DNA from: a virus
Lineage: Duplodnaviria > Caudoviricetes
Length of the DNA stretch: 55,341 bases
Direction: 5' to 3' (one strand)
IMG/VR virus record: IMGVR_UViG_3300032213_001903
Coordinates: 1 to 55,341 of that record
The position numbers were made by a program, and so were the translations under genes. Below the pieces are notes generated by a model, which was given only the letters and a program-made list of their open reading frames with translations, had not been told where the DNA came from and searched no databases. Shown here in pieces: positions 23,442 to 39,496 of the stretch. Numbering within the stretch: the stretch's first letter is position 1; each line of letters begins with the position of its first letter.

Positions 23442-23450
23442 TAATATTAT

Positions 23451-24035
23451 TCATAAAGACCACTCTATTACAGTTTGCTTGGTGTTGTTAAGTGTTACTT
23501 CACCTAAAAATTTAGAAGTAGAAATCAATCTATCGTTTTCCTCATACATTATATTATTTCGCTTGTGTTTTTTATTGCTATTGAATTCTTTAACAATCCA
23601 TGTATTATATAGATGTACATTATATGAGTTAAATGTAGTCCATGCTTTTTTGTATCCATGTTCTTTTGCAATCTCTAAGTGAAATGGAAGCAACAAACCA
23701 TAACTCATGGGTTTTACAGTAAAAAAACAAAATAATCTTGCTAATACCAATGCAATATCATCCGTATGTTTGCGAACTCCTGCAAAGGCCCAGGCTTTGT
23801 CATTGACTGCCAGTATAGAATAACCATGAGCAAAGCCGTTGTTTAGTAGCATAGGACCAAGTGACCAAGGCTTAGCATCTTCACCAAACTGATAGTTTTC
23901 AATACTGTTATTTTTTCCTGCAGTAGCCCAATATTTCTCAGCCTCTTCTTTGACTATATGATAACATTCTTCTCCGTCATCGTAGTGATTTATAGTATAT
24001 GTTGCTGATCCTATGATTTTGGTCACTGATCTCAT
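23451..24035 (-). CDS. Hypothetical protein, GNAT-like fold suspected
   Basis: AFAGVR..VLARLF..AKEHGYKKAWTTFN. Confidence 0.5.
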   Translation of the reverse strand: MRSVTKIIGSATYTINHYDDGEECYHIVKEEAEKYWATAGKNNSIENYQFGEDAKPWSLGPMLLNNGFAHGYSILAVNDKAWAFAGVRKHTDDIALVLARLFCFFTVKPMSYGLLLPFHLEIAKEHGYKKAWTTFNSYNVHLYNTWIVKEFNSNKKHKRNNIMYEENDRLISTSKFLGEVTLNNTKQTVIEWSL

Positions 24036-24069
24036 TATAATATTTGTATGGTAAAGACAATAACAATTT

Positions 24070-25824
24070 TCAAAAATTCAAGAAATCTTTAGCATAGTTA
24101 TATTCACTCCATGTCTCTAGAAATTTTTCTTTATCTGGACAATCTTTCATAGTGTCTTCGACTATACCCCAATTTCTTGCTACTAGACTATGCATATCAG
24201 CCGAGCCAACTAAAATTTTTCCACTCGCACTATCCATAGCGTTTATTCTGTATTTTGAAAAATTTGATATTCTTGTTTCTAAAATAATTTTAAAATCATT
24301 AGTTTCAACTAATCTGTCTATTAATGCTTTTAAATATTTCCAGTTAACATCTATCCAACCCCAAGCCGGCCATTTAGTTCTACTTAACAATGCTCGATAT
24401 AATTGGTCAAACACCATCATTGTCACGATATCTCGTTCACTGGCAGTGCTAGTAGAAAGAACCATTTCAGTCATTATCTCTGGGTCACTCGCATTATAAA
24501 CATCTAGTACTGAGTTTTGTTTTGGCTTCATATCAATGATATCAAATACCACTCCGCTTTCTACTTTGTATTTTTCTTTATAATCTGCATCATATGCTAC
24601 AGGAGCATTGACTAAAATATGAAATGAGTAACTTCTAGGTACAAATCCATTACTATAAATTTCATTTAATGTTTCTAAATATGATTTTAGTGATTGTCCT
24701 GGTAACCCAACTATAATTTCTACATAAATCTTTTTTAATCCATGTGATTCATTATATTTTCTATACATTGAATGCGCAAAGTTTTTCTGATCTTCCCAGC
24801 TTCCTGGTCTGTGTATCGCATCAAGTACATCTTTATTAACATCCTGTGCGCTTAATTTTATCCACCAGCGGGATAATTTATACTTAATGATTAGTTCTAA
24901 TATTTCTTTAGTAGTGTTACTAAAATTTTTGTTTAAGTTATAAAGATAGTATTTAAATTCATGTCCATTTTGATTATGTTCGATTACTCTTTTAGTTATA
25001 GCTAGATCATCTTCCCACATACCAAAATTAGCATCTGCTAGATATAAATTATACATCTGATGTTTGGCCATAAAATCAATATCGTCTAAAAAATTTATTT
25101 TCCTCTTCTGTGTTTTATTACTTTGCCCACCATTCCAATCACAGAATGTACAGTGAAACGGACAACCTCTACTAGTCTCATATATCCAGGCTAGACTAAC
25201 ATTTGGTTTGGTTTTATAAAATTCTATTAATTCTACCACTAAATCTTCACATTCACGATATGGGCTAAAATGAATACCACGAACAAATTCATAGTTGTAT
25301 GATGTTTGAGTAGATTTAATATCATCCTTATTTTTTATGAAATGAACTATGTTTGAATCTTCCGAAGAAATTTGACGGGCGCCAATAAAGTCTAGTGCTA
25401 AACTAGCCCAAGCTTTCTCCCCCTGTCCAATGACATAGTGATCTATAAAAGGATATTTAGTATACCAGTCTTGATTGACAGCATCACAACTTGGTCCTCC
25501 AGCTACTATTTTGATTGAATCCTGAAAGTAGTCTTTAACTGCCTTAATTTGATCAAAAATACTTCTAACATTCCATAAATACAAGCTTACACAGAGTATA
25601 TTTGCATTTTGTTCTTTGATATAACTTATTAATTCTTGGTTTGTAGCAGTATGTATAATACTAGGTGCCCACTGAACCATATCTTTGTACAATGGATAAT
25701 TTACTTTGAAATAACTATGCAAATAATATGGAGTTGGATTTACGAATATATTCTCATTATTTAATGCTGAATAGTTAGCACTGTTACCTGGCGGAGAATA
25801 AAATACAACTTTTATAGTTTTCAT
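24070..25824 (-). CDS. B12-binding radical SAM protein
   Basis: SLYLWN..IVAGGP..GQGE cobalamin-binding domain; ETSRGCPFHCTFCDW; DANFG; GLPGQ. Confidence 0.9.
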   Translation of the reverse strand: MKTIKVVFYSPPGNSANYSALNNENIFVNPTPYYLHSYFKVNYPLYKDMVQWAPSIIHTATNQELISYIKEQNANILCVSLYLWNVRSIFDQIKAVKDYFQDSIKIVAGGPSCDAVNQDWYTKYPFIDHYVIGQGEKAWASLALDFIGARQISSEDSNIVHFIKNKDDIKSTQTSYNYEFVRGIHFSPYRECEDLVVELIEFYKTKPNVSLAWIYETSRGCPFHCTFCDWNGGQSNKTQKRKINFLDDIDFMAKHQMYNLYLADANFGMWEDDLAITKRVIEHNQNGHEFKYYLYNLNKNFSNTTKEILELIIKYKLSRWWIKLSAQDVNKDVLDAIHRPGSWEDQKNFAHSMYRKYNESHGLKKIYVEIIVGLPGQSLKSYLETLNEIYSNGFVPRSYSFHILVNAPVAYDADYKEKYKVESGVVFDIIDMKPKQNSVLDVYNASDPEIMTEMVLSTSTASERDIVTMMVFDQLYRALLSRTKWPAWGWIDVNWKYLKALIDRLVETNDFKIILETRISNFSKYRINAMDSASGKILVGSADMHSLVARNWGIVEDTMKDCPDKEKFLETWSEYNYAKDFLNF

Positions 25825-26814: not shown

Positions 26815-26867
26815 AGGATCGGTTCAGCAATTAAAAAAACTTTATATGAAAAAATTAAAAGCGTCCT
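26815..26867 (+). ncRNA. CAGCAA-clamp RNA #1 (short, degenerate; overlaps 5' end of the tRNA-Arg-like gene)
   Basis: AGGATCG-GTT-CAGCAA ... CG-TCCT. Confidence 0.5.
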
Positions 26868-26940
26868 TATACCCTCTGGCTACGAACCAGTTGAAAGGTT
26901 AGTTGGATACATGGAGGTTCGAATCCTCCAGGGCGCGCCA
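26861..26940 (+). tRNA. Atypical 'rewired' tRNA-Arg(ACG)
   Basis: Acceptor GCGTCCT/AGGGCGC+GCCA, normal T-arm, CTGG-CTACGAA-CCAG arm, D-loop-like AGTTGGATA located after the anticodon arm. Confidence 0.7.
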
Positions 26941-26984
26941 AACATAAATATTCAACAACATATATGATGTTACTAAATAAAAAT

Positions 26985-27071
26985 GGAAGATAGATGGCTT
27001 GGAGCCTAACTGGACTTGAAATCCGGTCCACTCAGTGATGGGTGACAGTTCGATTCTGTTATCTTCCTCCA
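26985..27071 (+). tRNA. tRNA-Ser(TGA), tRNA-Sec/allo-tRNA-like
   Basis: GGAAGAT(A)/(T)ATCTTCC acceptor, CTGGA-CTTGAAA-TCCGG, long variable arm, short D-loop. Confidence 0.75.
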
Positions 27072-27078
27072 AACTAAT

Positions 27079-27152
27079 ATCTCGATAGTGTAATGGCAGC
27101 ATACCGGTCTCCAAAACCGTTAGTCTAGGTTCGAGTCCTAGTCGGGATGCCA
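27079..27152 (+). tRNA. tRNA-Trp(CCA)
   Basis: Cloverleaf, loop CTCCAAA, CCA end. Confidence 0.92.
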
Positions 27153-27163
27153 AATATTCATGT

Positions 27164-27238
27164 GCTGATATAACACAGGGGAAGTGTACTTTCTTGGTAA
27201 GAAAGAGGTCACTGGTTCGAATCCAGTTATCAGCACCA
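27164..27238 (+). tRNA. tRNA-Thr(GGT)
   Basis: Cloverleaf, loop TTGGTAA. Confidence 0.92.
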
Positions 27239-27245
27239 AAATTAT

Positions 27246-27321
27246 GTGGGTGTGACCCGAAAGGCTAGGGAACGGATTGCAAATCCGTTTTATGCAGGTT
27301 CGACTCCTGTCATCCACTCCA
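27246..27321 (+). tRNA. tRNA-Cys(GCA)
   Basis: Cloverleaf, loop TTGCAAA, U73. Confidence 0.92.
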
Positions 27322-27328
27322 ATATATT

Positions 27329-27352
27329 GGAAGTATAGCAAAGTGGTAGTGC
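27329..27352 (+). pseudogene. 5' fragment of a tRNA (acceptor strand + D-arm)
   Basis: GGAAGTA-TA-GCA-AAGTGGTAG-TGC, then breaks off before the endonuclease gene. Confidence 0.55.
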
Positions 27353-27384
27353 TTTTATTAAAAAGGCATAAATAATAGAAGAAG

Positions 27385-28062
27385 ATGCACTACCAAATGT
27401 TAACTTGTAAATTTTGTGGTAAAGAATGTAAGAATGAAAACTCATTGAGGAATCATCAAAGATTATGCAAGAGTAATCCTGAACGACAACAGAGTCCTTT
27501 TGAGAAGAAAGAAATTCAAGAAAATAGAAAAAGATCAAATCAATTTTTAAAAGCAAAATCTTTGGGTATTGACTATGTAATTTCAGACGAAACTAGGAAT
27601 AAATTTAAAGAATTAGCTGTTAGAACTTGGACCGATGAAAAGCGTAGGGAACATTCTGAGTGGATGAAAATACAAGCACAACGAAATTTGAATAATCACC
27701 CAGATTCATATCTATCCAAGAATATATTCGGTCGTTCTAAAAAAACACTGTACAAAAATGAATGGATGCATAGTTCATGGGAACTAGAATTTGCGATGTG
27801 GTTGGATTCGATTCAAGTTGAATGGACTAAAAAAGTTCCGTATTTTACTTATGATTGGGATGGCTCGGTTCGTAGATACTTTCCTGATTTCTATTTGAAA
27901 GAATTTGATTTATATGTAGAAATTAAAGGATATCAAACAGATCGTGATCTTGTTAAATGGAAATGTATTCCTAATTTAGCGATAGTTAAAGAAAAAGAAA
28001 TTAAGGCAATTAAAGAAAAAAAGTTTGAATTGTCGCAATTGTTAAATGGTAAGGTACCTTAA
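27385..28062 (+). CDS. Putative homing endonuclease: zinc finger + PD-(D/E)xK (TnsA-like) nuclease
   Basis: CKFC...H..LC; SSWE..FA..LD; YFPDFYL...YVEIKG; 3' end overlaps the next tRNA. Confidence 0.8.
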   Translation: MHYQMLTCKFCGKECKNENSLRNHQRLCKSNPERQQSPFEKKEIQENRKRSNQFLKAKSLGIDYVISDETRNKFKELAVRTWTDEKRREHSEWMKIQAQRNLNNHPDSYLSKNIFGRSKKTLYKNEWMHSSWELEFAMWLDSIQVEWTKKVPYFTYDWDGSVRRYFPDFYLKEFDLYVEIKGYQTDRDLVKWKCIPNLAIVKEKEIKAIKEKKFELSQLLNGKVP

Positions 28063-28123
28063 GAGGAAGAGGACATCCTTCATACGGATGAATGTGTGAT
28101 TTCGAGCATCACCCTTACCACCA
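28048..28123 (+). tRNA. tRNA-Met/Ile2(CAT)
   Basis: GGTAAGG/CCTTACC acceptor, loop TTCATAC. Confidence 0.8.
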
Positions 28124-28136
28124 TAGAGTATTTTGT

Positions 28137-28212
28137 GGTGCTATTAGTGTAGTGGTCTGCACATCATGTTGTGACCGTGAAAGTATGAGTTCAATCCTCA
28201 TATAGCACCCCA
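28137..28212 (+). tRNA. tRNA-His(GTG)
   Basis: G-1:C73, loop TTGTGAC. Confidence 0.9.
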
Positions 28213-28223
28213 AAGCATTTTAT

Positions 28224-28297
28224 GCCCCTTTAGTTAAAAAGTATAACACTGTGCTGATAACGCAGAGTCGGAGGAGCGTTACCTCCCGGGGGTACCA
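28224..28297 (+). tRNA. tRNA-Ile(GAT)
   Basis: Loop CTGATAA; atypical T-loop AGCGTTA. Confidence 0.85.
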
Positions 28298-28303
28298 AGT
28301 TTT

Positions 28304-28367
28304 AGGATGCGTTCAGCAACTTTAATACATTAGACTTTTAATCTAAACCGTAAAAAAGCATCCTGTT
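28304..28367 (+). ncRNA. CAGCAA-clamp RNA #2 carrying a Lys(UUU) anticodon stem-loop
   Basis: AGGATGC/GCATCCT-GTT clamp, GTTCAGCAA, internal TTAGA-CTTTTAA-TCTAA. Confidence 0.8.
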
Positions 28368-28380
28368 ATTTTTGACCTTT

Positions 28381-28498
28381 AGGTTCTTTTCAGCAATTTA
28401 AATAATCTTTCTGGAAAAAAGAGGGTCTGGGTTCGAATCCCAGCACTAGGTTGGTCTCTAGTGTGGTGTAATGGTAGCACGAAAAAAGAGAACCTGTT
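28381..28498 (+). ncRNA. CAGCAA-clamp RNA #3 carrying a circularly permuted tRNA (YrlA-like)
   Basis: AGGTTCT/AGAACCT-GTT clamp; anticodon arm TCTTT-CTGGAAA-AAAGA, T-arm CTGGG-TTCGAAT-CCCAG, loop-closed acceptor CACTAGG/TCTAGTG, D-arm GTGT-AATGGTA-GCAC. Confidence 0.85.
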
Positions 28499-28500
28499 AT

Positions 28501-28575
28501 ATTCCGTGAGGCAGCTGGAGTGGCCGATAGTCCTTCAAACTATTGAGATGGGATCAAAACCCATACGGAATACCA
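28501..28575 (+). tRNA. Atypical tRNA (loop CCTTCAA: Glu TTC, or shifted TCA)
   Basis: ATTCCGT/ACGGAAT acceptor, ATAGT/ACTAT stem, T-loop ATCAAAA, CCA. Confidence 0.65.
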
Positions 28576-28583
28576 AATTTTAT

Positions 28584-28661
28584 TGTGCATGAGCAAGCAA
28601 GGTGTATGCGTCTGGCTGTTAACCAGAAATGAGTGGGGTTCGATTCCTCAATGCACAGCCA
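28584..28661 (+). tRNA. tRNA-Asn(GTT)
   Basis: Loop CTGTTAA, G73 CCA. Confidence 0.88.
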
Positions 28662-28667
28662 ATTTAA

Positions 28668-28742
28668 GCCGAAGTGGTAGACTGGTAATGCAACGGATTG
28701 TCTATCCGTCCTATGCGGGTTCGATTCCCGTCTTCGGCGCCA
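28668..28742 (+). tRNA. tRNA-Asp(GTC)
   Basis: Loop TTGTCTA, G73 CCA. Confidence 0.88.
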
Positions 28743-28744
28743 AG

Positions 28745-28894
28745 TTTTGAGATAGACGATGAGATTGAGTCCCTTATATTCTAGTGCCCTATTTCTTGAG
28801 CATGACACACCAGTAGAATTGTATAAGGTAGTATAAACTCTCTCAATCGAGACAAGCCAATGAGTCCTTAAGAAAGATAGTTGGTCTCTCAAAA
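28745..28894 (+). ncRNA. Unknown structured RNA (~150 nt)
   Basis: TTTTGAGA/TCTCAAAA closing stem; nested CGAT.GAGA..GAGT/ACTC.TCTC.ATCG and CTTATA.TTCTA/TAGAA..TATAAG. Confidence 0.55.
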
Positions 28895-28903
28895 ACCTAT
28901 AAC

Positions 28904-28978
28904 GGGGGCAGTAGCGGGCTACGGCGATCCCTTGCAAGGATCGTGTCTAGAAGGGTTCAACTCCCTCGGCTTCCACCA
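28904..28978 (+). tRNA. Atypical tRNA-Ala(TGC) with minimal D-arm
   Basis: G3:U70, CGATCC-CTTGCAA-GGATCG, D region GTAG-CGGG-CTAC, ACCA. Confidence 0.7.
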
Positions 28979-28993
28979 AACAAAGGAGTAGTA

Positions 28994-29362
28994 ATGGTGA
29001 AACAATTTACTATCGATGAAAGTTTTATTTGTGAAGTTTCAATTATTGTAGAAACTGATTTTATTACTGACCGTAATAATCCTACACATGAAGACCTTAT
29101 AAAAATACTTAAAGGATATGACAAATCAATTAGTATATCTAGCAAAGACCATGATGAGTTTACAAAATTGCGTGACCAACTTGAAAGTGAAGGTTACATT
29201 GAATGTCAACGATCTTGGTATAATGGTGATAGAGTATTAAAAAGTTTTAAATTAAATGAATTCGTCCTGCGAAAAGGACACAAGTTTTTATGTGCTGTTG
29301 CAATGAAGAACAGTATTACATACGCAAGAAGTAAAGGTCGTAAAACGATTTCTTTCTTGTAA
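28994..29362 (+). CDS. Hypothetical protein
   Basis: AAGGAG RBS before ATG 28994. Confidence 0.7.
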   Translation: MVKQFTIDESFICEVSIIVETDFITDRNNPTHEDLIKILKGYDKSISISSKDHDEFTKLRDQLESEGYIECQRSWYNGDRVLKSFKLNEFVLRKGHKFLCAVAMKNSITYARSKGRKTISFL

Positions 29363-29369
29363 AAATTAA

Positions 29370-29445
29370 CTCTCTATAGCGTAACTTGGTAGCGTTCCTG
29401 GTTTGGGGCCAGGCGGTCGGGGTTCAAATCCTCGTGGGGAGACCA
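29370..29445 (+). tRNA. tRNA-Pro(TGG)
   Basis: Loop TTTGGGG, C1-G72, A73. Confidence 0.9.
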
Positions 29446-29449
29446 GTTT

Positions 29450-29566
29450 AGGGATACATACAGCAAATTCTATCCAAACGATAGGTAGTTGGTTCGATTC
29501 CAACATTACGCACATGCGTGATTAGCTCACTCGGTAGAGCATTCGTCTTAAAGACTGTATCCCGTT
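29450..29566 (+). ncRNA. CAGCAA-clamp RNA #4 carrying a circularly permuted tRNA (YrlA-like)
   Basis: GGGATACA/TGTATCCC-GTT clamp; CTATC-CAAAC-GATAG, T-arm GTTGG-TTCGATT-CCAAC, closed acceptor ATTACGC-ACAT-GCGTGAT, D-arm GCTC-ACTCGGTA-GAGC. Confidence 0.85.
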
Positions 29567-29572
29567 TTACAT

Positions 29573-29648
29573 AGTCGATTAGTTCAGTGGTATGAACGCT
29601 ACATTGACACTGTAGAGGTCAGTGGTTCGACTCCACTATCGACTACCA
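29573..29648 (+). tRNA. tRNA-Val(GAC)
   Basis: Loop TTGACAC. Confidence 0.93.
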
Positions 29649-29671
29649 ATTATCTTTTAAAGGAAATAAAA

Positions 29672-29845
29672 ATGAAAACAATTTATTTTGAAAACATTAG
29701 AAATAATGAAAAATTTTATTGTACCGATATTAAAGATATAAGGACAATTGATGGAATTGAATATCTTAGAGTATTCAAAATGGGAACTCAGCGTGATTGT
29801 CTTGTAAAGAAAGACACACTTAGAAAGATTCCTGAAAAGAAATAA
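29672..29845 (+). CDS. Hypothetical small protein (57 aa)
   Basis: AAGGA RBS; MKTIYFENIRNNEKFYC... Confidence 0.65.
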   Translation: MKTIYFENIRNNEKFYCTDIKDIRTIDGIEYLRVFKMGTQRDCLVKKDTLRKIPEKK

Positions 29846-29846
29846 T

Positions 29847-29924
29847 GCCCCCTTGGACAAATTGGCAAAGTCGCTTCTCTCAAAAGGAAGAGTTTTCTCG
29901 GTTCGACTCCGAGAGGGGGTACCA
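29847..29924 (+). tRNA. tRNA-Leu(CAA), short variable loop
   Basis: Leu-type D-arm, loop CTCAAAA. Confidence 0.88.
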
Positions 29925-29932
29925 CAATAAAT

Positions 29933-30009
29933 GCCCAAGTGGTGGAATTGGTATACACGCAATGTTGAGGTCGTTGTCACTGCAGGTTCGAGTCCTGTCT
30001 TGGGTACCA
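29933..30009 (+). tRNA. tRNA-Leu(GAG), short variable loop
   Basis: GTGGAATTGGTATACAC D-arm, loop TTGAGGT. Confidence 0.88.
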
Positions 30010-30049
30010 AATTTGACATAAATTAATTTTTATGTTATAGTAGTACTAT

Positions 30050-30126
30050 GGGTCGTTAGCTCAGTGGATAAGAGTGCTTGGCTTCGAACCAAGTGGTCAG
30101 GGGTTCGAATCCTCTACGACCCTCCA
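30050..30126 (+). tRNA. tRNA-Arg(TCG)
   Basis: Loop CTTCGAA. Confidence 0.92.
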
Positions 30127-30174
30127 AAACTAGTTAAATAGTTATAGTGGCAATAGCAGATAAAGGAGTAGAAA

Positions 30175-30735
30175 ATGGCTGTTCTAGCACTAGATATTTC
30201 GGGAGTTCCCCGGCAATGGATTTCGCATGATGATGCAATTACTTACCATGCAAAAAATGCAGTAGCATGGGCATTGGGTGAAGTAGTGGCTAAATATCGC
30301 GGCGGTGTTCAAAATGACGGAGAAATGAGTTATCTAGAAACTTCTAGCATAATTGCTATTAAAGGTCATGGTTTTAACCCACACAAACATGCTACTGTTG
30401 CATTGAGTAATAGAACATTGTTTGGTCGTGATCGTTATATTTGTGCATATTGCGGTGGGCATTTTCCTAATTATCACAATCTAAGCCGTGATCATATTAT
30501 GCCTAAAAGTCGCGGTGGTGAAAACATTTGGACAAATGTGGTAACCGCATGTAAGGATTGTAATGCTAAAAAAGGTCACAAACTTTTAAAAGAATGTAGC
30601 ATGGAATTGCTTTATGTTCCTTATGTGCCAAATCACTATGAAAATATGATTCTACAAAATCGTACAATCCTTGCAGATCAAATGGAATATTTGCTTGCTG
30701 GAGTACCAAAGCATAGTAGAATTTTATTGTCGTAA
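30175..30735 (+). CDS. HNH endonuclease (McrA-like)
   Basis: RDRYICAYCG, DHIMPKSRGG..W.NVVTACKDCN..KG. Confidence 0.9.
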   Translation: MAVLALDISGVPRQWISHDDAITYHAKNAVAWALGEVVAKYRGGVQNDGEMSYLETSSIIAIKGHGFNPHKHATVALSNRTLFGRDRYICAYCGGHFPNYHNLSRDHIMPKSRGGENIWTNVVTACKDCNAKKGHKLLKECSMELLYVPYVPNHYENMILQNRTILADQMEYLLAGVPKHSRILLS

Positions 30736-30796
30736 CGGGATATCATGCAGTTGACAAAAAATCTGCTGCATGATATACTAGCTAAATATTTTAAAC

Positions 30797-30872
30797 GCTC
30801 CTGAAGCATTGCTGGCGATGCGCCGGATTTGTAACCCGGAGATAATCTGTTCGATTCAGATCGGGAGCACCA
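30797..30872 (+). tRNA. tRNA-Thr(TGT)
   Basis: Loop TTTGTAA. Confidence 0.88.
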
Positions 30873-30881
30873 ACAACATAT

Positions 30882-30957
<76 letters not shown>

Positions 30958-30976
30958 AACATAGTATGGAGATTGT

Positions 30977-31171
30977 ATGTTAGTAAGTGAAAACGCAGGA
31001 TATAAACTATATTGTGAGGTTCGTAAACTAGATGTGCCCCCACAAAACAATTATGTTCGCATTTATACAACATATGATTGGGCTAAAAATCCAACTTACG
31101 AACAAAACAAACTAGAGTTGTTCCTCAGTGATGAAGAACTATCAACACTCAGGCAATCGTTAACGCTATAA
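30977..31171 (+). CDS. Hypothetical small protein
   Basis: GGAG RBS. Confidence 0.65.
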   Translation: MLVSENAGYKLYCEVRKLDVPPQNNYVRIYTTYDWAKNPTYEQNKLELFLSDEELSTLRQSLTL

Positions 31172-31179
31172 AAAATTCT

Positions 31180-31254
31180 CTGGCGTTAGTATAACGGATA
31201 ATACAGCGGCCTTCTAAGCCGTCAATAGAGGTTCGATTCCTCTACGCCGGACCA
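31180..31254 (+). tRNA. tRNA-Arg(TCT)
   Basis: Loop CTTCTAA. Confidence 0.92.
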
Positions 31255-31302
31255 AAAACAAAAGTAGTATAAAATTGTTGTAAAAATACAACATAAAAAG
31301 TT

Positions 31303-31385
31303 TTGACAATAAATCAAAACGGTAGTATACTACATGTATTGAAAGTGATAAAGCAATCTTGCTTATCATTAAGGTTCTTTAAAAA
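31303..31385 (+). promoter_or_regulatory. Sigma70 promoter + hairpin + boxA-like leader
   Basis: TTGACA-17-TATACT; TGATAA.GCAA/TTGC.TTATCA hairpin; GTTCTTTAAAAA. Confidence 0.7.
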
Positions 31386-31391
31386 ATTGTC

Positions 31392-31517
31392 AGACTGTTT
31401 CTAAGTGTGCTGTAGTATAGTGGGAAGTACGCAAGGGCCCTCACGATTCATATCGTACGGTGGGAATCGCCAGTGAAACGATGGTTCGACTCCATCTAGT
31501 ACACTTAAAAACAGTTT
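31392..31517 (+). ncRNA. tRNA-like RNA with extended stalk and no CCA
   Basis: D-arm GTAT-AGTGGGAA-GTAC, T-arm GATGG-TTCGACT-CCATC, AGACTGTTT.TAAGTGTGCTG/TAGTACACTTA.AAACAGTTT stalk. Confidence 0.65.
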
Positions 31518-31582
31518 GACAATAAATGCACTTGGTGCTATACTATGTGCATACGCTGAGAAATCAGCAAGTTCTTTAAAAA
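31516..31582 (+). promoter_or_regulatory. Sigma70 promoter + boxB/boxA-like leader
   Basis: TTGACA-17-TATACT; GCTGA-GAAA-TCAGC; GTTCTTTAAAAA. Confidence 0.75.
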
Positions 31583-31617
31583 ATTAATTTTGTATAGTCC
31601 CTGTTTAAGTTACAGGG

Positions 31618-31733
31618 TACTATATGTAAACACATTGTTATGCAGCACAGCCGAATCTGTGTGTAACTCCTAGGCGTAACCTATTATGAGAAATAGGGGA
31701 GTGCTATTCTCATCAGTGTGTTTTCATATAGTA
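31618..31733 (+). ncRNA. Stalk-enclosed structured RNA with probable pseudoknot
   Basis: TACTATATG.AAACACATTG/CAGTGTGTTT.CATATAGTA; loop ATGAGA can pair with downstream TCTCAT. Confidence 0.6.
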
Positions 31734-31737
31734 ATTT

Positions 31738-31812
31738 GCTCGGTTCGTCTATTGGTTAGGACGCTGGCCTTTCACGCCGGAAAGAGGGGTTCAATTCCCC
31801 TACCGAGTACCA
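31738..31812 (+). tRNA. tRNA-Glu(TTC)
   Basis: Loop CTTTCAC. Confidence 0.93.
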
Positions 31813-31948
31813 AGTAATAGGGAGAGTCGCTGCGAAGCGTATTCTTAAACGACCCGTAGAACTCCCGGGCGTCCCCAAGTAAGTTTTTGGTGACATGACA
31901 GATTTCAAATCTTACTTACAAATGATAAATACATTTAGGAGTAAGATT

Positions 31949-32374
31949 GTGAAACAAAACCATACTAACAAATTTACGGATGCTGATTTAATAGCACAAT
32001 ACAAGTTAACACCCACTTTAAGTAAACTTTCTCATTTTTTTAATGTACCTGATGTAACAGTCTGGCGCAGAGCAAAAAAATTAGGATTAGAATTTAAGAT
32101 AGGTGGTGCTAATGCTAAAATGCCTTTATCAGAGATTTTAGAAGGAAAGCATCCACAATATCAAAGTAATAAATTAAAAAACAGACTTATTAATGAAGGT
32201 ATAAAAGAAAATAAATGCGAAGAATGTGGTATTACTGAATATCAAGGTAAGCCTTTAGTGATGCAGTTAGATCACATAGACGGTAATACACATAATCATT
32301 TATACAGTAATTTAAAACTACTATGTCCAAACTGTCATTCTCAGACAGTAACATGGTGTGGTAAAAACAAATAA
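31949..32374 (+). CDS. HNH homing endonuclease
   Basis: CEECG, LDHIDGN..N...NLKLLCPNCHSQT; AGGAG before GTG 31949. Confidence 0.88.
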   Translation: MKQNHTNKFTDADLIAQYKLTPTLSKLSHFFNVPDVTVWRRAKKLGLEFKIGGANAKMPLSEILEGKHPQYQSNKLKNRLINEGIKENKCEECGITEYQGKPLVMQLDHIDGNTHNHLYSNLKLLCPNCHSQTVTWCGKNK

Positions 32375-32376
32375 TT

Positions 32377-32464
32377 GGGTGTTGCCCCCGTCGGCGGTCT
32401 GTAAAACCGTTACCTAAAGAGATGGGAAGTCAGGTTCGTGGAGCGTTACCATCAACACCCACCA
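32377..32464 (+). tRNA. Atypical 'rewired' tRNA-Tyr(GTA)
   Basis: GGGTGTTG/CAACACCC+ACCA, GCGGT-CTGTAAA-ACCGT arm directly after CCCC, then GGGA and D-loop-like AGTCAGGTT before the T-arm. Confidence 0.7.
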
Positions 32465-32471
32465 AGTTTAT

Positions 32472-32548
32472 GCACCGTTAGATCAGTTGGTTAGATCGCA
32501 TGCCTGTCACGCATGAGGCCAGGGGTTCAAGTCCCCTACGGTGCGCCA
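32472..32548 (+). tRNA. tRNA-Asp(GTC)
   Basis: Canonical, loop CTGTCAC. Confidence 0.95.
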
Positions 32549-32722
32549 AAATTCAAACATAAACAATATCTGGTATTTTGCTAGTATCTAGAAAATTAAG
32601 ATATTGTTTTATACTTTTGAAGTCGCTAGTAATCATTATTATTTTGTTCTGTTTATTAACAACAGTGTACATTTTGATATGATTATGCCAGGTAACTTCA
32701 ATAGTCATAGACATATTTATAT

Positions 32723-32792
32723 GCGCTGGAATGGTTTACTAGCTGGATTTGAAGCCAGAAGTAGACGGGTTCGATTCCCGTTAGGTGCGCCA
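32723..32792 (+). pseudogene. tRNA remnant lacking the 5' acceptor strand
   Basis: CTGG-ATTTGAAG-CCAG, ACGGG-TTCGATT-CCCGT, TAGGTGC-GCCA without a complementary 5' strand. Confidence 0.6.
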
Positions 32793-32801
32793 AATTTTTT
32801 T

Positions 32802-32877
32802 GCTGCTTTAGCTGATGTGGTCATAGCAACGGTCTGAAGAACCGATGAACGTGGTTCGATCCCACGAGGCAGCACCA
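32802..32877 (+). tRNA. tRNA-Phe(GAA)
   Basis: Loop CTGAAGA. Confidence 0.9.
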
Positions 32878-32880
32878 AGT

Positions 32881-33091
32881 TTTGTAAGTGTCAGCAAGAG
32901 AAAGTCACGCTATCTAGGTAAGTTCGAACTACCAAAATAGTAGAAGGTGACGGGTTCGACTCCCGGCCGATCGGAAGATCGGTGCAGATTGGTTGCTAAC
33001 TGGACCGGTATCCCAAGTGGCGTATCTTGACCCAGCCGGCTTAATTACATGGGAAAATGGTAGCGATATGAGGGACGCTACTACTTACAAA
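32881..33091 (+). ncRNA. CAGCAA-clamp RNA #5 (~210 nt) with permuted tRNA-like module
   Basis: TTTGTAAGT/ACTTACAAA clamp, GTCAGCAA; CGGG-TTCGACT-CCCG, GCCGATC-GGAA-GATCGGT, GCA-GATTGGT-TGC. Confidence 0.7.
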
Positions 33092-33119
33092 TTCATTTTT
33101 TAAGTTAAAATATAATATT

Positions 33120-33211: not shown

Positions 33212-33220
33212 ATAACAATA

Positions 33221-33397: not shown

Positions 33398-33400
33398 AGC

Positions 33401-34351: not shown

Positions 34352-34428
34352 GGAAGTATAGCTCAACTGGCTAGAGCAACCGGCTTTTAACCGGTAGGTT
34401 CAGGGTTCAAGTCCCTGTGCTTCTACCA
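34352..34428 (+). tRNA. tRNA-Lys(TTT)
   Basis: Loop CTTTTAA. Confidence 0.94.
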
Positions 34429-37524: not shown

Positions 37525-37697
37525 AGGATCGGTACAGCAACCATACTTATTACATGGACTGCTACACTTACCCTGTTACTAGCTGGAGCCTTAATTGGCT
37601 TTGAAGGTTGGTAACAATGCGCAAGCAAGGATCGTGTAGATAGAGGAGTTTCGATAAGTCTCCTCGATAAAAACAAAAAGTAGACAACGATCCTGTT
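37525..37697 (+). ncRNA. CAGCAA-clamp RNA #6 (~170 nt)
   Basis: AGGATCG-GTA-CAGCAA ... CGATCCT-GTT; inner CTACAC/GTGTAG, GTTACTAGC/GTTGGTAAC, GAGGAG/CTCCTC helices. Confidence 0.8.
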
Positions 37698-37703: not shown

Positions 37704-37936
37704 GGGATGTGTTCAGCATTTTAAACAACTTGATTACTGCTATTGAAGGTGGTCGAAGGACACAATAGAAATATTGTTCTAGTAATAGAAACTGATGGAA
37801 TAGATGACAGATTGGAAAGACAGCCTATGTTGTTAGTAGCAGACACAATTACTAACTAGACAACATGAATTGTTGGTATGGTCTGAGTAGCATAATTGGT
37901 CAGACCAGAAAATAAAAAAACTGCTACGAACATCCC
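37704..37936 (+). ncRNA. CAGCAA-clamp RNA #7 (~230 nt)
   Basis: GGGATGT-GTT-CAGCAT ... ACATCCC; inner ATGTTG.TTAGTA/TACTAA..CAACAT, TGGTCTGA/TCAGACCA helices. Confidence 0.75.
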
Positions 37937-37989: not shown

Positions 37990-38046
37990 AGGATGCATTC
38001 AGCAATCTTTAATACTTTTCATAATAGTAAAAAAGCGCATCCTGTT
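37990..38046 (+). ncRNA. CAGCAA-clamp RNA #8 carrying a CAU anticodon-like hairpin, in the 5' leader of the DUF2828-like gene
   Basis: AGGATGC-ATT-CAGCAA ... TACT-T-TTCATAA-T-AGTA ... GCATCCT-GTT. Confidence 0.8.
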
Positions 38047-38074: not shown

Positions 38075-39496
38075 ATGCAATTCGCCGAAGCAGTAATGAA
38101 CCAAGAAGTCCGTACTACTAATGGTATGAAGGCTCGCAAGTCAACAGCAAACGCCTGTGTTGATTTGTTTTATAACATCGGTGCAAGCCGAGGTAAAAAC
38201 ATCATCCCAGCATTTACTGCGGCATATGTAGAAAACTCTGATCTAGCATTGCGTATCGCCCAATGGGCGCGTGATGCGCGTGGGGGTTCAGGTGAACGAG
38301 AATTGTTCCGACAAATCTTGTCTTACTTGGAAGTAGCTAATCCAACAGACGCTAGCCGTCTATTGGCTAAGGTTCCTGAATTGGGACGCTACGATGACTT
38401 GTTTGTTTTTAAGACTAAGAATCTTAAAACACAGGCATACACTATGTTGGGCGATGCATTGCGTAACCGTAATGGATTGGCTGCAAAGTGGACCCCACGA
38501 AAGGGCGATGTTGCACGAGAAATTCGTGAATTCTTTGGTATGACTCCAAAGCAATATCGTAAGAGCCTTGTTGCATTGACCAATGTCGTTGAAACACAAA
38601 TGTGTGCCAACGATTGGGACAATATCAACTATAGTCATGTACCATCCGTGGCACATGCACGATACAAGAAGGCTTTTGGTCGTCATGGTACAACTTATGC
38701 AGAGTATGTAACCAAGTTGGTTAAGGGTGAAGCTGGTGTTAAAATTAACGCTGGTGCAGTATTCCCTTACGATGTATTGAAGGGTGCTATCAACAAGTAC
38801 AGCCGTAGTTCAATGACTAAGACTGAGTTGGATGCATTGCAAGCTCAATGGGACGCATTGCCGAACTTCATTGGTGATAGTAATGTTTTACCAATGGTTG
38901 ACAGTTCAGGTTCTATGACTTGTGCCGCAGGTGGACCTTCTTCAAAGAGTGGTTTGACTTGTTTGGATGTTGCAATCTCATTGGGATTGTATTTTGCAGA
39001 CAAGAACACTGGTAAGTTCAAGGATACTTTCTTGACTTTCAGTCGCACTCCTAAGTTGGTTAACCTTAAGGGTAATATCAATCAAAAGATTGATCAAATG
39101 AACACTGGTGAAGTTGCTAACACCGACTTGAACAAGGCGTTTGATTTGATCCTTAAGACTGCTGTAGATAACAGTGTGCCTCAAGCAGAAATGCCTGAAA
39201 CTCTTGTGATCTTCAGTGACATGCAGTTTGATCAAGGTGTTGACCATGATGACAGTGCTATCGAAATGATTGCACGAAAGTACAAGCTTGCAGGTTACGA
39301 ACTTCCAAAGGTCGTATTCTGGAACTTGAACGCCGCATACGGCAACAGTCCAGTTAAGTTTAACAAGGCAGGTGTTGCGCTAGTCTCAGGATTTAGCCCA
39401 GCAGTTGCACAAGGTATGCTTAGTGGTAACATGGATGACTTCACCCCAGAAGCAATCATGCTGAAGACCGTTATGAAGGATCGTTATTCAGTTTAA
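38075..39496 (+). CDS. DUF2828-like TROVE/vWA protein (Ro60/Rsr-related RNA-binding protein)
   Basis: T.NG..A, WARDARGGSGER, GRYDD, AAKWTPRKG, VETQMCAN.W..INYS.VPS; vWA MIDAS DSSGS..NTD..SDMQFD; VVFWNL, LVSGFSP; AAAGGAG RBS. Confidence 0.85.
   Translation: MQFAEAVMNQEVRTTNGMKARKSTANACVDLFYNIGASRGKNIIPAFTAAYVENSDLALRIAQWARDARGGSGERELFRQILSYLEVANPTDASRLLAKVPELGRYDDLFVFKTKNLKTQAYTMLGDALRNRNGLAAKWTPRKGDVAREIREFFGMTPKQYRKSLVALTNVVETQMCANDWDNINYSHVPSVAHARYKKAFGRHGTTYAEYVTKLVKGEAGVKINAGAVFPYDVLKGAINKYSRSSMTKTELDALQAQWDALPNFIGDSNVLPMVDSSGSMTCAAGGPSSKSGLTCLDVAISLGLYFADKNTGKFKDTFLTFSRTPKLVNLKGNINQKIDQMNTGEVANTDLNKAFDLILKTAVDNSVPQAEMPETLVIFSDMQFDQGVDHDDSAIEMIARKYKLAGYELPKVVFWNLNAAYGNSPVKFNKAGVALVSGFSPAVAQGMLSGNMDDFTPEAIMLKTVMKDRYSV

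What the first reader, a model, noticed from the sequence alone, without database searches (positions are those of the whole stretch)
28304..28367. Minimal clamp RNA displaying an isolated tRNA-Lys(UUU) anticodon stem-loop
Seen: the only structured cargo is TTAGA-CTTTTAA-TCTAA, whose loop is identical to that of the tRNA-Lys(TTT) gene at 34352, between AT-rich linkers. Established: tRNA-Lys(UUU) is the target of the anticodon nuclease PrrC. Inference: decoy or sensor substrate for such nucleases.
Basis: partly seen in the sequence, partly recalled or inferred. Interest (0 to 1): 0.8.

Follow-up and report, generated by a model that had tools for sequence, protein, structure and literature searches.

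The report
Phage small RNA mimicking tRNA-Lys anticodon arm
A 64-base phage RNA, one of a large unrecorded family that sits beside a Ro60-like protein gene, carries a near-exact copy of a bacterial lysine-tRNA anticodon arm and probably serves as bait for a host protein that reads that arm.

Summary
At 28304-28367 (+) a 7-bp terminal stem encloses the motif TTCAGCAA and one hairpin (28330-28346), a 5-bp stem with the loop CTTTTAA, which is also the loop of the window's tRNA-Lys(UUU) gene. Folding energy alone is unremarkable. Comparison decides it. 85 true homologues from viral contigs keep the hairpin, one stem pair covaries, and the terminal stem covaries strongly. The commonest form of the 17-nt arm is letter-for-letter the anticodon arm of real bacterial tRNA-Lys(UUU) genes. 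None of 46 phage-encoded tRNA-Lys genes has that arm.

The Lys triplet is not fixed: UUU 49, UCU 30, others 6. It has switched within 7 of 20 lineages.

The RNA is one of seven "clamp" RNAs in this window's tRNA array. Two others carry whole permuted tRNA-like bodies. The array ends at a DUF2828/DUF7788 gene whose predicted fold is Ro60.

The same family occurs next to that gene in cultured phages (Felixounavirus, Mooglevirus, a mycobacteriophage). Rfam 15 has no model that matches it. I read it as a new Y-RNA-like family with an anticodon-arm bait. A role as decoy for an anticodon nuclease is plausible but untested, and PrrC in particular has no support.

The parts
28304..28367 (+). Clamp RNA B, the finding: terminal stem, motif, anticodon-arm hairpin and GUU tail
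28304..28310 (+). 5' strand of the 7-bp terminal clamp stem (AGGATGC)
   Evidence: Pairs with 28358-28364. Clamp positions 4, 6 and 7 covary in homologues.
28312..28319 (+). Conserved single-stranded motif TTCAGCAA next to the 5' clamp strand; candidate protein-binding site
   Evidence: 11 matches in the window against 3.25 expected, 4 of them on the + strand inside the tRNA/sRNA array. Motif variants TTCAGCAA 44, AACAGCAA 23 and TACAGCAA 5 among 80 homologues.
28326..28352 (+). Inner helix TAC/GTA (28326-28328 with 28350-28352) enclosing the anticodon-arm hairpin
   Evidence: one double change, UA to AU, in 65 rows
28330..28346 (+). Anticodon-stem-loop mimic TTAGA-CTTTTAA-TCTAA, loop 28335-28341
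28358..28367 (+). 3' strand of the clamp (GCATCCT) plus conserved GTT tail
   Evidence: tail GTT in 72 of 80
28224..28297 (+). Upstream tRNA (called by Rfam only) with encoded CCA; B starts 6 nt after the CCA
   Evidence: 52 of 67 homologues have a CCA within 12 nt upstream.
26815..26867 (+). Clamp RNA A; imperfect 3' strand (CGTCCT, one base short)
28381..28498 (+). Clamp RNA C. Cargo is a circularly permuted tRNA-like body in the order anticodon arm (loop CTGGAAA), variable loop, T arm, capped acceptor stem, D arm.
   Evidence: (Rfam YrlA 20.8 bits, tRNA 22 bits, both below cut-off)
29451..29566 (+). Clamp RNA D (GGGATACA...TGTATCCC, TACAGCAA) with T arm, capped acceptor-like stem and D arm
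   Evidence: z = -5.18
37525..37697 (+). Clamp RNA E, about 150-nt cargo
37704..37936 (+). Clamp RNA F (GGGATGT...ACATCCC, TTCAGCAT), about 210-nt cargo
37990..38046 (+). Clamp RNA G, minimal; ends about 30 nt before the start of the Ro60-like gene
   Evidence: (a homologue at this position in almost every related locus)
38075..39496 (+). DUF2828 + DUF7788 (vWA) protein with a predicted Ro60 fold; proposed protein partner
34352..34428 (+). The phage's own tRNA-Lys(UUU). Same 7-nt loop (34384-34390) but a different, G+C-rich stem.

Best explanation
B is a real, selected small RNA. It belongs to a large phage family not matched by any Rfam 15 model, and the family is built like a Y RNA. The 5' and 3' ends form a 7-bp stem, and an unpaired YNCAGCAA motif follows the 5' strand. 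Between these lies a variable 'cargo'.

The stem plus motif is the likely handle for the Ro60-fold DUF2828/vWA protein encoded at the end of the same array. In B the cargo is reduced to one element, a copy of a bacterial-type tRNA-Lys(UUU) anticodon stem-loop.

Most likely the ribonucleoprotein presents this arm as bait for a host protein that reads the Lys (or, with C35, Arg-like) anticodon arm. The leading candidate is a tRNA-targeting defence nuclease, which the bait would soak up or block while the phage's own, differently stemmed tRNA-Lys keeps translation going.

Shown here: the structure, its conservation and covariation, the identity of the arm to bacterial tRNA-Lys arms, the co-occurrence with the Ro60-fold protein, and that protein's fold.

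Inferred: that the RNA is expressed and processed out of the tRNA transcript, that it binds the protein, and what the bait catches.
For: Structure and selection:
- 80 of 87 contexts have a perfect clamp plus motif, with 3-4 pair types at clamp positions 6 and 7. The hairpin pair 29:41 is U-A in 55 and A-U in 31.
- The formal pair count shows 0 of 500 shuffles reaching the observed values.

Anticodon-arm character:
- Loops are CU-NNN-AA in 84 of 85 true homologues.
- The same loop form occurs in unrelated stems of other minimal clamp RNAs, 29 of 124 against 0.5 expected, with 11 different triplets.
- C-type relatives carry a full permuted tRNA body whose arm keeps CU..AA while the triplet varies: GGA, ACG, GCG, GAA, GUA, GCA.

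Host-type identity:
- The 17-mer pattern gave at least 120 bacterial stretches.
- Of 81 matches in the 80 loci returned, 68 lie in ARAGORN tRNA-Lys(ttt) genes on the same strand.
- E. coli lysT shares 15 of 17 positions.
- None of 46 distinct phage tRNA-Lys(UUU) genes has this stem.

Protein partner:
- Pfam DUF2828 and DUF7788; phrog_850 'RNA-binding protein'.
- AlphaFold2 model with pLDDT 92.5. The top 12 listed PDB matches are all Ro60, with TM up to 0.60.
- The protein is present in 30 of 41 B-carrying contigs and in 4 of 4 near-complete ones.
- The same RNA architecture lies directly beside the gene in E. coli phage JH2, in Moogleviruses and in Mycobacterium phage Crossroads.

Defence context:
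- PARIS AriB recognises the tRNA-Lys anticodon stem-loop and cuts between residues 40 and 41. T5 escapes with a tRNA-Lys changed in that arm (PMC11464382, passages read; T5 and E. coli arms compared).
- A Ro60-like gp130 that lies upstream of the tRNA genes of phage Bas63 counters the Ppl defence (preprint PMC11482910, passage read).
Against: - There is no expression data. No RNA run was listed as holding the stretch, so ends and abundance are unknown.
- No binding or cleavage test is possible with these tools.
- The triplet is UCU in 30 of 85. That form is not a copy of any bacterial tRNA arm in the sample searched: 1 of 401 genomes matched, and the match is neither a tRNA nor a clamp RNA. 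A strict 'Lys decoy' reading does not fit a third of the family.
- The window's own variant (A29-U41) matched only 1 of the 68 bacterial tRNA-Lys arms.
- The exact 17-mer is found in only 14 of 401 genomes of one phylum. The host is unknown.
- Many sibling minimal RNAs (95 of 124) have no strict anticodon-like loop, so the family's function does not depend on anticodon mimicry.
- B lies 9.7 kb from the protein gene.
- The canonical Ro-binding motif is absent.
- The sequence sets were chosen by pattern, which inflates the apparent pairing.
Confidence: 0.55

Rival explanations
1. The arm is bait for a housekeeping tRNA-reading protein rather than a defence nuclease. Candidates are lysyl/arginyl-tRNA synthetase anticodon-binding domains and anticodon-loop modification enzymes (t6A37, mnm5s2U34). 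The ribonucleoprotein would tether or titrate such a protein for the phage's benefit, as YrlA's tRNA-like domain is handled by tRNA enzymes.
For: - Loop positions 32, 33, 36, 37 and 38 are almost invariant, while 35 toggles between U and C.
- From recalled knowledge, not a call: position 35 is a main identity element for LysRS (U35) and ArgRS (C35), and U36-A37-A38 is the context for t6A37.
- Chen et al. 2014 (PMC4201824, passages read) show that YrlA tRNA-like domains are modified and cut by tRNA enzymes.
Against: - No phage benefit is evident.
- The phage's own tRNA-Lys avoids the host-type stem (0 of 46). That pattern is expected under nuclease pressure, not under synthetase recruitment.
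- Nothing was tested directly.
Confidence: 0.15
2. An RNA quality-control or repair platform. As with bacterial Rsr-Y RNA, the clamp RNAs gate or target the Ro-like ring towards damaged tRNAs or tRNA fragments, and the arm acts as a specificity or sensing module rather than a decoy.
For: - The partner has the Ro60 fold.
- Iyer et al. 2021 (PMC7824862, passage read) describe phage ROT/TROVE proteins as part of RNA-repair platforms with a tRNA-like partner.
- In one near-complete relative an Rnl1-type RNA ligase lies 2.4 kb from the DUF2828 gene.
Against: - RNA ligases are sporadic among five large relatives: RtcB 1 of 5, Rnl2-like 1 of 5, Rnl1-like 1 of 5.
- No Rnl1-type ligase (PF09511) was found in the window, which is only a 16% fragment; the other two ligase families were not searched there.
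- It is unclear how a free anticodon arm would guide repair.
Confidence: 0.13
3. Not a trans-acting RNA. The clamp elements would be processing or spacer signals within the polycistronic tRNA transcript, or decaying remnants of tRNA genes, and the anticodon arm would be a relic.
For: - B starts 6 nt after an encoded CCA, and 52 of 67 homologues follow a CCA within 12 nt.
- Sibling cargos are clearly tRNA-derived.
- Copy A in the window is imperfect.
Against: - A relic would not keep 5 of 7 loop positions and a covarying stem across 85 contexts in 20 clamp lineages.
- Clamp RNAs also occur away from tRNAs, directly before or after the Ro-like gene, in distant phages.
- The motif and the terminal stem are conserved from mycobacteriophages to enterobacterial phages.
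Confidence: 0.07
4. A chance hairpin in A+T-rich spacer DNA.
For: The folding energy is not unusual (z = -1.57).
Against: All the comparative data.
Confidence: 0.01

Closest known systems
Bacterial and phage Y RNAs (YrlA/YrlB, Rfam RF02553; Thermus phage phiLo Yrl1/Yrl2)
   Same: - A small RNA encoded beside a Ro60-fold protein gene.
- The 5' and 3' ends pair into a stem, with a conserved unpaired motif next to the 5' strand.
- A variable effector module that in several members (C and D here) is a tRNA-like T arm, capped acceptor stem and D arm.
   Different: - The motif is YNCAGCAA, not GNCGAA(N)G or CGAA.
- The protein is the DUF2828/DUF7788 branch, not Pfam TROVE: PF05731 was not found in 5 related contigs.
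- Rfam YrlA scores are far below cut-off (20.8 against 69).
- B has no T or D arm, only an anticodon arm, which YrlA lacks.
- C-type members carry an anticodon arm in addition.
Dictyostelid Class I RNAs (Rfam RF01414)
   Same: - About 60 nt, with a 6-7-bp terminal stem whose sequence varies through compensatory changes.
- A conserved motif ending ...CAGCAA right after the 5' strand, and a variable A/U-rich interior.
- 5' AG... and ...CUGU 3' flanks.
- It is the best non-tRNA Rfam match: 34.5 bits, E = 1.9e-5 for L156:1534-1587, and 20.1 bits for B.
- Features taken from Kjellin et al. 2021, PMC7919456, passages read.
   Different: - All scores are below the gathering score of 41.5.
- Class I RNAs are eukaryotic, have their own DUSE promoter, and are reported as absent outside Dictyostelia.
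- Their known binder is an RRM protein.
- I could not test whether dictyostelids have a DUF2828 protein.
Phage-encoded tRNAs that evade anticodon-arm nucleases (T5 tRNA-Lys against PARIS AriB; T4 repair against PrrC)
   Same: The same target region, the tRNA-Lys(UUU) anticodon stem-loop, is the battleground. The phage's own tRNA-Lys here also has a stem unlike the bacterial one.
   Different: Those are full, chargeable tRNAs that replace the cleaved host tRNA. B cannot be charged, keeps the host-type arm and would have to act by binding.
Anticodon-arm mimics in mRNAs and viral RNAs (E. coli thrS operator; HIV-1 tRNA-like element that binds LysRS). Recalled, no call.
   Same: An isolated stem-loop that copies a tRNA anticodon arm in order to bind a protein that reads it.
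   Different: Those are cis elements in long RNAs and bind synthetases. B is a free-standing small RNA in a Y-RNA-like frame.

Membership tests
Y RNA / YrlA | Encoded near a Ro60-family gene, on the same strand | tested here: met
   The array runs on the same strand up to the Ro60-fold gene. G ends about 30 nt before the gene, and B lies 9.7 kb upstream. The protein is present in 30 of 41 B-carrying contigs.
Y RNA / YrlA | Stem formed by the 5' and 3' ends | tested here: met
   A 7-bp stem with covariation
Y RNA / YrlA | Ro-binding motif GNCGAA(N0-1)G / GGUCCGA in a bulged helix | tested here: not met
   The motif is TTCAGCAA. The YrlA definition comes from PMC4201824 passages.
Y RNA / YrlA | Rfam RF02553 gathering score (69 bits) | tested here: not met
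   No YrlA hit on B. Sibling C scores 20.8 bits.
Y RNA / YrlA | tRNA-like T-arm and D-arm module | tested here: not met
   B has only the anticodon-arm hairpin. Siblings C and D do have these arms.
Y RNA / YrlA | Bound by the Ro60-type protein | not testable with these tools
   Needs RIP or EMSA
Dictyostelid Class I RNA (RF01414) | Short terminal stem with compensatory changes, and about 60 nt in length | tested here: met
   7 bp, 61-64 nt
Dictyostelid Class I RNA (RF01414) | 11-nt motif next to the 5' strand and a CUGU 3' end | tested here: inconclusive
   UU-CAGCAA aligns to the model's CUUACAGCAA with one gap, and the 3' ...CCUGUU contains CUGU. The RNA ends have not been mapped.
Dictyostelid Class I RNA (RF01414) | Rfam gathering score of 41.5 bits | tested here: not met
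   B scores 20.1, L150 scores 19.3, and the best relative scores 34.5
Dictyostelid Class I RNA (RF01414) | DUSE promoter and dictyostelid genome | tested here: not met
   The source is a phage contig. DUSE was not searched for.
tRNA (RF00005) | Cloverleaf with acceptor, D and T arms; Rfam score of 29 bits or more | tested here: not met
   No tRNA hit on B. A B-type relative scores 18.2 bits. ARAGORN makes no call.
tRNA-Lys(UUU) anticodon-stem-loop mimic | 5-bp stem, 7-nt loop, C32 U33 ... A37 A38 | tested here: met
   84 of 85 homologues
tRNA-Lys(UUU) anticodon-stem-loop mimic | Triplet UUU conserved | tested here: inconclusive
   UUU in the window and in 49 of 85 homologues. UCU in 30, GCU in 4 (3 with a CU and 1 with a CA loop start), UGU in 2. 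Both UUU and UCU occur in 7 of 20 clamp lineages.
tRNA-Lys(UUU) anticodon-stem-loop mimic | Arm sequence equals that of real tRNA-Lys genes | tested here: met
   68 of 81 bacterial matches lie in tRNA-Lys(ttt) genes. 67 of these are the majority variant and 1 is the window's variant. E. coli lysT matches 15 of 17.
Decoy or sensor for PrrC-type anticodon nuclease | Bound or cleaved by the nuclease, and protects host or phage tRNA-Lys | not testable with these tools
   Needs the bench tests listed under next steps

The most novel reading that the evidence does not exclude
The clamp/CAGCAA RNAs are the long-missing partners of the whole DUF2828 branch of Ro60-like proteins. That branch is very widespread: 5,997 clusters at 50% identity and 711 cultured-phage records.

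They are the same RNA class as the dictyostelid Class I RNAs, whose function has been open for 20 years and which were thought unique to social amoebae.

Within this class, B-type RNAs would be uncleavable or sacrificial copies of the host tRNA-Lys anticodon arm that neutralise anticodon-arm nucleases of the PARIS AriB or PrrC kind. The two polymorphic sites (pair 29:41 next to the AriB cut site, and position 35) would then be marks of an arms race.
Probability: 0.12. Interest if true: 0.92.

Novelty: new variant of a known kind. Interest (0 to 1): 0.78.

Why it matters
Ro60-Y RNA particles are known in animals and bacteria and in a few phages, always with a CGAA-type handle. Here a second handle (terminal stem plus CAGCAA) goes with a second, far larger branch of Ro60-fold proteins. 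That branch occurs in hundreds of cultured phages, including easy E. coli phages of the Felix O1 group.

The RNAs are not annotated in the records I looked at, and no Rfam 15 family matches them at its threshold.

Their cargos range from whole permuted tRNAs to a bare copy of the host's lysine-tRNA anticodon arm. The phage thus displays, on a protein-held scaffold, exactly the piece of tRNA that several bacterial defences cut. If the RNA acts as bait, this would be a new RNA-based counter-defence, and it would give the Ro-like proteins of phages a concrete job.

It can be tested with standard phage-defence assays. The likeness to dictyostelid Class I RNAs, if it reflects common descent, would give those RNAs a candidate protein partner.

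Tried and rejected
- Expression: the look-up of sequencing runs listed no RNA holder.
- Earlier notes of this scan: none for this genome.
- PDB by sequence for the protein: 0 hits at E up to 1. The fold search was needed.
- Literature on DUF2828: 5 papers, none about RNA (listing only).
- Search for a published phage anticodon-arm decoy (listing and abstract starts only): none seen among the 12 papers listed of 23.
- 'TROVE/Dictyostelium/Ro60' search (listing only): nothing bearing on a dictyostelid DUF2828 protein.
- ESM Atlas: only viral DUF2828 clusters, no eukaryotic lead.
- MAFFT alignment A2: it placed gaps inconsistently in the 3' clamp strand, so clamp positions 6-7 were counted by script and left out.
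- My first clamp scanner had a wrong spacing, and a later version closed RNA C on a false G-U stem. Both were corrected.
- That scanner also reports two window sites that I reject as chance, at 46752-46881 (+) and 19623-20011 (-). The first lies inside the long ORF 44978-47131; both have weak scores.
- The idea that the UCU variant copies a bacterial tRNA-Arg arm: rejected.
- The idea that B's covarying pair is the very pair whose swap gives PARIS resistance: not settled. The text says 'U-A for A-U' without numbering, and T5 differs from E. coli at both 29:41 and 31:39. The figure is not held.
- Clamp stem as an intrinsic terminator, and the hairpin as a T-loop mimic: considered from the sequence and rejected. 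The enclosed loop is 47 nt, and the hairpin loop lacks the T-loop pattern.
Full report
**Setting.** The window is a 55,341-bp IMG/VR viral contig estimated at 16% complete. Between 26.7 and 36.7 kb it carries 32-34 tRNA genes, all on the + strand. The finding lies in a spacer of this array, 6 nt after the encoded CCA of a tRNA that only Rfam calls (28224-28294).

**The observation.** The sequence is as described:
- AGGATGC (28304-28310) pairs with GCATCCT (28358-28364).
- TTCAGCAA follows the 5' strand (28312-28319).
- The interior is A/U-rich apart from TAC/GTA (28326-28328 with 28350-28352).
- This short helix encloses TTAGA-CTTTTAA-TCTAA (28330-28346).
- The window's tRNA-Lys(UUU) gene has the same loop but the stem ACCGG/CCGGT.

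RNAfold recovers the clamp and the hairpin. The energy is ordinary: z = -1.57, and 15 of 200 shuffles fold as well. On this window alone the hairpin could be chance.

**A family, not a single hairpin.** The pattern AGGATNNNTTCAGCA with up to two mismatches picks out seven + strand sites inside the array. Each has a matching 3' strand followed by G(T/C)T:
- A, 26815-26867 (imperfect)
- B, the finding
- C, 28381-28498
- D, 29451-29566
- E, 37525-37697
- F, 37704-37936
- G, 37990-38046

E, F and G run straight up to an ORF (38075-39496) that matches Pfam DUF2828 and DUF7788 and phrog_850 'RNA-binding protein'.

C and D carry permuted tRNA-like bodies: a T arm, an acceptor-like stem closed by a loop, and a D arm. 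C scores 20.8 bits on Rfam YrlA and 22 bits on tRNA, both below cut-off. In C an anticodon arm (TCTTT-CTGGAAA-AAAGA) precedes the T arm, so the clamp interrupts a complete tRNA shape between the D stem and the anticodon stem.

**The protein.** It has 5,997 relatives among 50%-identity cluster representatives at E up to 0.001. It matches 711 cultured-phage records, including:
- Felixounavirus
- KVP40-like Vibrio phages
- Listeria, Staphylococcus, Campylobacter, Enterococcus and Bacillus phages
- mycobacteriophages, where it is annotated 'Ro-like RNA binding protein'

By sequence it finds nothing in the PDB. An AlphaFold2 model built on 68 sequences has pLDDT 92.5 and pTM 0.91. Its 12 best listed Foldseek matches are all Ro60, from Xenopus, human, Deinococcus and Thermus phage phiLo, at E of about 1e-7 to 4e-6 and query-normalised TM 0.41-0.60. 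It is a Ro60-fold protein of a branch that Pfam TROVE does not cover: PF05731 was found in 0 of 5 related contigs, while the control genomes matched.

**Homologues of B.** I scanned IMG/VR with a pattern that fixed the hairpin stem and 3' flank and left a 5-9-nt loop free. It returned 105 stretches. Pooled with the loci fetched through the protein there are 114 hits in 87 distinct contexts:
- 80 have a perfect 7-bp clamp and the CNGCA motif at the expected distance.
- 2 are cut by the end of the locus.
- 1 has one clamp mismatch.
- 2 (L158, L178) hold the same inner module in a different two-helix scaffold.
- 2 (L093, L108) are chance hits.

The clamp was no part of the pattern, so its presence is independent evidence. 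Its pairs covary:
- position 4: A-T 73, T-A 6, G-C 1
- position 6: C-G 19, A-T 27, G-C 34
- position 7: G-C 32, C-G 33, A-T 7, T-A 8

The one free hairpin pair is T-A in 55 and A-T in 31.

On alignment A2 (65 distinct RNAs), 13 pairs are paired in all 845 cells and four change on both sides. None of 500 shuffles and no slid register comes near. Much of that pairing was imposed by how the set was chosen. The covarying positions were not.

**Is the loop anticodon-like?** Among the 85 true homologues the loops are CTTTTAA 49, CTTCTAA 30, CTGCTAA 3, CTTGTAA 2 and CAGCTAA 1. So 84 of 85 fit CU-NNN-AA. Positions 32, 33, 36, 37 and 38 are all but fixed, and variation sits at 35 and rarely at 34.

It also holds outside B's own lineage:
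- Of 124 other distinct minimal clamp RNAs, 29 have a stem of at least 4 bp closing a CT...AA loop, where shuffles predict 0.5.
- 44 fit the looser YT...R. form, where shuffles predict 3.4.
- These occur in at least eight unrelated stems, with triplets CAA, CAU, GAA, GCA, GGA, GUA, GUU, UGA, UGU, UUC and UUU.

C-type RNAs keep CU..AA while the triplet runs through GGA, ACG, GCG, GAA, GUA and GCA. For comparison, 783 of 1,525 distinct real phage tRNA genes in these loci have CT...AA loops.

Against this, 95 of the 124 other minimal RNAs have no strict anticodon-like loop, and D-type arms have 4-6-nt loops. Anticodon display is one kind of cargo, not the family's rule.

**Whose anticodon arm?** The majority arm, TTTGA-CTTTTAA-TCAAA, differs from E. 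coli K-12 lysT (GTTGA-CTTTTAA-TCAAT) only at the outermost pair. In the 80 loci returned there are 81 matches:
- 68 lie inside ARAGORN tRNA-Lys(ttt) genes on the same strand.
- 67 of those have the majority form and 1 has the window's form.
- 13 are not in a tRNA call.

The carriers include Saprospiraceae and other Bacteroidota, Bacilli, Clostridia and Alphaproteobacteria. In a 401-genome sample of one phylum the 17-mer is present in 14.

By contrast, none of 46 distinct phage-encoded tRNA-Lys(UUU) genes in the viral loci has this stem. Their stems are G+C-rich, averaging 6.7 G+C among 10 stem bases. So B copies a bacterial arm and not the phage's own, which is what a bait for a host-tRNA reader should do.

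**The Lys identity is not fixed.**
- UCU occurs in 30 of 85.
- Both UUU and UCU occur in 7 of 20 clamp-plus-motif lineages and with both states of the covarying pair.
- One contig carries a UUU copy and a UCU copy 580 nt apart (L118), and another carries UCU and GAU copies (L149).
- The UCU arm is not taken from a bacterial tRNA-Arg. The pattern was found in 1 of 401 genomes, at a site that is neither a tRNA nor a clamp RNA.

Position 35 therefore either is free or is under diversifying selection, while the rest of the loop is held.

**Reach of the family.**
- E. coli phage JH2: the DUF2828 gene is followed by the tRNA array. Directly after tRNA-Glu and tRNA-Met lie AGACCAA-TTACAGCAA...TTGGTCT-GG and AGACCGT-ATGCAGCAA...ACGGTCT-GG.
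- The 2-kb block is present at 80% coverage or more in 252 of 260 matching records.
- In Moogleviruses the clamp and motif are kept while the cargo differs.
- In Mycobacterium phage Crossroads three such RNAs follow the 'Ro-like' gene, the middle one with a tRNA-like body.
- Synechococcus phage BUCT-ZZ01 has B- and C-equivalents in an unannotated gap.
- None of these RNAs is annotated in the records shown.

Rfam 15 offers only sub-threshold hits. Published Y RNAs of bacteria and phages are defined by a GNCGAA(N)G or CGAA motif (PMC4201824 and PMC12135203, passages read), which these RNAs lack. I saw no description of this family in the searches.

**Mechanism.** The evidence supports a structured, selected RNA with a handle shared by all members and interchangeable cargo, linked in position and occurrence to a Ro60-fold protein: 30 of 41 B-carrying contigs, and 4 of 4 that are at least 90% complete. 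Y RNAs tether Ro60 to other proteins through their variable module. By that analogy, I take the clamp plus CAGCAA as the protein handle and the anticodon arm as the module that engages a protein reading the tRNA-Lys arm.

The defence-nuclease reading rests on context:
- tRNA-Lys(UUU) is a repeated target of bacterial defences.
- PARIS AriB recognises the anticodon stem-loop and cuts between residues 40 and 41. T5 escapes through a tRNA-Lys altered in that arm (PMC11464382, passages read; arms compared).
- The phages here likewise keep a non-host stem in their real tRNA-Lys.
- A Ro60-like protein upstream of the tRNA genes of Bas63 counters the Ppl system (preprint PMC11482910, passage read). 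I did not check that gp130 is a DUF2828 member. That Bas63 is a Felixounavirus is recalled.

B's covarying pair is 29:41, next to the AriB cut site. Whether it is the pair whose swap gives resistance I could not settle. Nothing links B to PrrC in particular.

Synthetase or modification-enzyme binding, and a role in tRNA repair or surveillance, remain open. RNA ligases are sporadic in large relatives, 1 of 5 for each of three families, although one Rnl1-type gene lies 2.4 kb from the DUF2828 gene in G014.

**An unexpected likeness.** The best non-tRNA Rfam match to these RNAs is the dictyostelid Class I RNA model:
- 20.1 bits for B and 17.0 for the 5' part of C
- 19.3 for L150
- 34.5 bits, E = 1.9e-5, for L156:1534-1587
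- the gathering score is 41.5

The published description of that class matches the minimal clamp RNAs point for point in outline: about 60 nt, a 6-bp terminal stem with compensatory changes, a conserved motif right after the 5' strand, conserved AAG start and CUGU end, a variable interior, and 'not found outside Dictyostelia' (PMC7919456, passages read). This may be convergence. I could not test whether dictyostelids have a DUF2828 protein.

**Verdict.** The reading 'isolated tRNA-Lys anticodon arm on a clamp RNA' is supported and sharpened: it is a host-type arm, the triplet is not fixed, and it is one cargo among many. The PrrC decoy idea stays a hypothesis. The larger result is the RNA family itself.

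Noticed in passing
window 26815-38046 (A-G); L156:1534-1587: Minimal clamp RNAs are the best non-tRNA match to Rfam RF01414, dictyostelid Class I RNA. Scores reach 34.5 bits (E = 1.9e-5) against a gathering score of 41.5. They share its published outline: terminal stem, ...CAGCAA motif, CUGU end, about 60 nt.
   Followed up: partly
window 28381-28498 and 29451-29566: Clamp RNAs C and D carry circularly permuted tRNA-like bodies. C has all four arms, with the clamp inserted between the D stem and the anticodon stem and the acceptor end capped by a loop. Among relatives the 'anticodon' varies (GGA, ACG, GCG, GAA, GUA, GCA).
   Followed up: partly
window 26861-26940: The imperfect 3' strand of clamp RNA A doubles as the 5' acceptor strand of an odd tRNA-like fold. 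It has a 7-bp acceptor stem, a T arm GGAGG-TTCGAAT-CCTCC and an encoded CCA, but no normal D arm. Neither ARAGORN nor Rfam calls it.
   Followed up: partly
window 28224-28294 and 36184-36254: Two tRNA genes are found by Rfam (41.4 and 51.2 bits) but not by ARAGORN.
   Followed up: no
L189:5717-5790 and 5886-5945 (E. coli phage JH2); L312-L314: Two unannotated clamp RNAs with the motif TTACAGCAA / ATGCAGCAA lie directly after tRNA-Glu and tRNA-Met, downstream of the DUF2828 gene. They are conserved across Felixounavirus and Mooglevirus, with variable cargo.
   Followed up: partly
L315:3426-3700 (Mycobacterium phage Crossroads): Three clamp RNAs (TAACAGCAA, TACAGCAA, TAACAGCAA) follow the 'Ro-like RNA binding protein' gene. 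The first has a hairpin loop TGCGGAT identical to that of the second JH2 RNA, despite the distance between the hosts.
   Followed up: no
L158 (- strand, about 3340-3420 of the reverse complement) and L178:1700-1790: The same anticodon-arm module (triplet GCU, with the ACCGTAAAAA flank) sits in a different covarying two-helix scaffold that has no CAGCAA motif. No DUF2828 or TROVE gene was found on these contig fragments.
   Followed up: partly
G014:C1:112748-113308 (relative of the window): A T4 Rnl1-type RNA ligase gene lies 2.4 kb from the DUF2828 gene, on the same strand. No such gene is in the window fragment.
   Followed up: no
L316:9-180 and 1039-1101 (phage T5): The T5 record annotates 'stable RNAs with unknown functions' (RNA2H, RNAIV) inside its tRNA cluster. 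RNA2H has a long terminal stem. Any relation to clamp RNAs was not examined.
   Followed up: no
window 36716-37457: A methyltransferase-like ORF (weak Pfam hits) and an RNA polymerase omega/Rpb6-like ORF (45 bits) lie between the last tRNA and clamp RNA E.
   Followed up: no
window 19321-25824 and 34914-35669: Auxiliary-metabolism-type genes flank the array: two fatty-acid desaturase-like ORFs, a DegT-type aminotransferase, an Asp/Arg hydroxylase-like ORF and a B12-binding radical SAM ORF. Several HNH and GIY-YIG endonuclease ORFs lie between the tRNAs.
   Followed up: no
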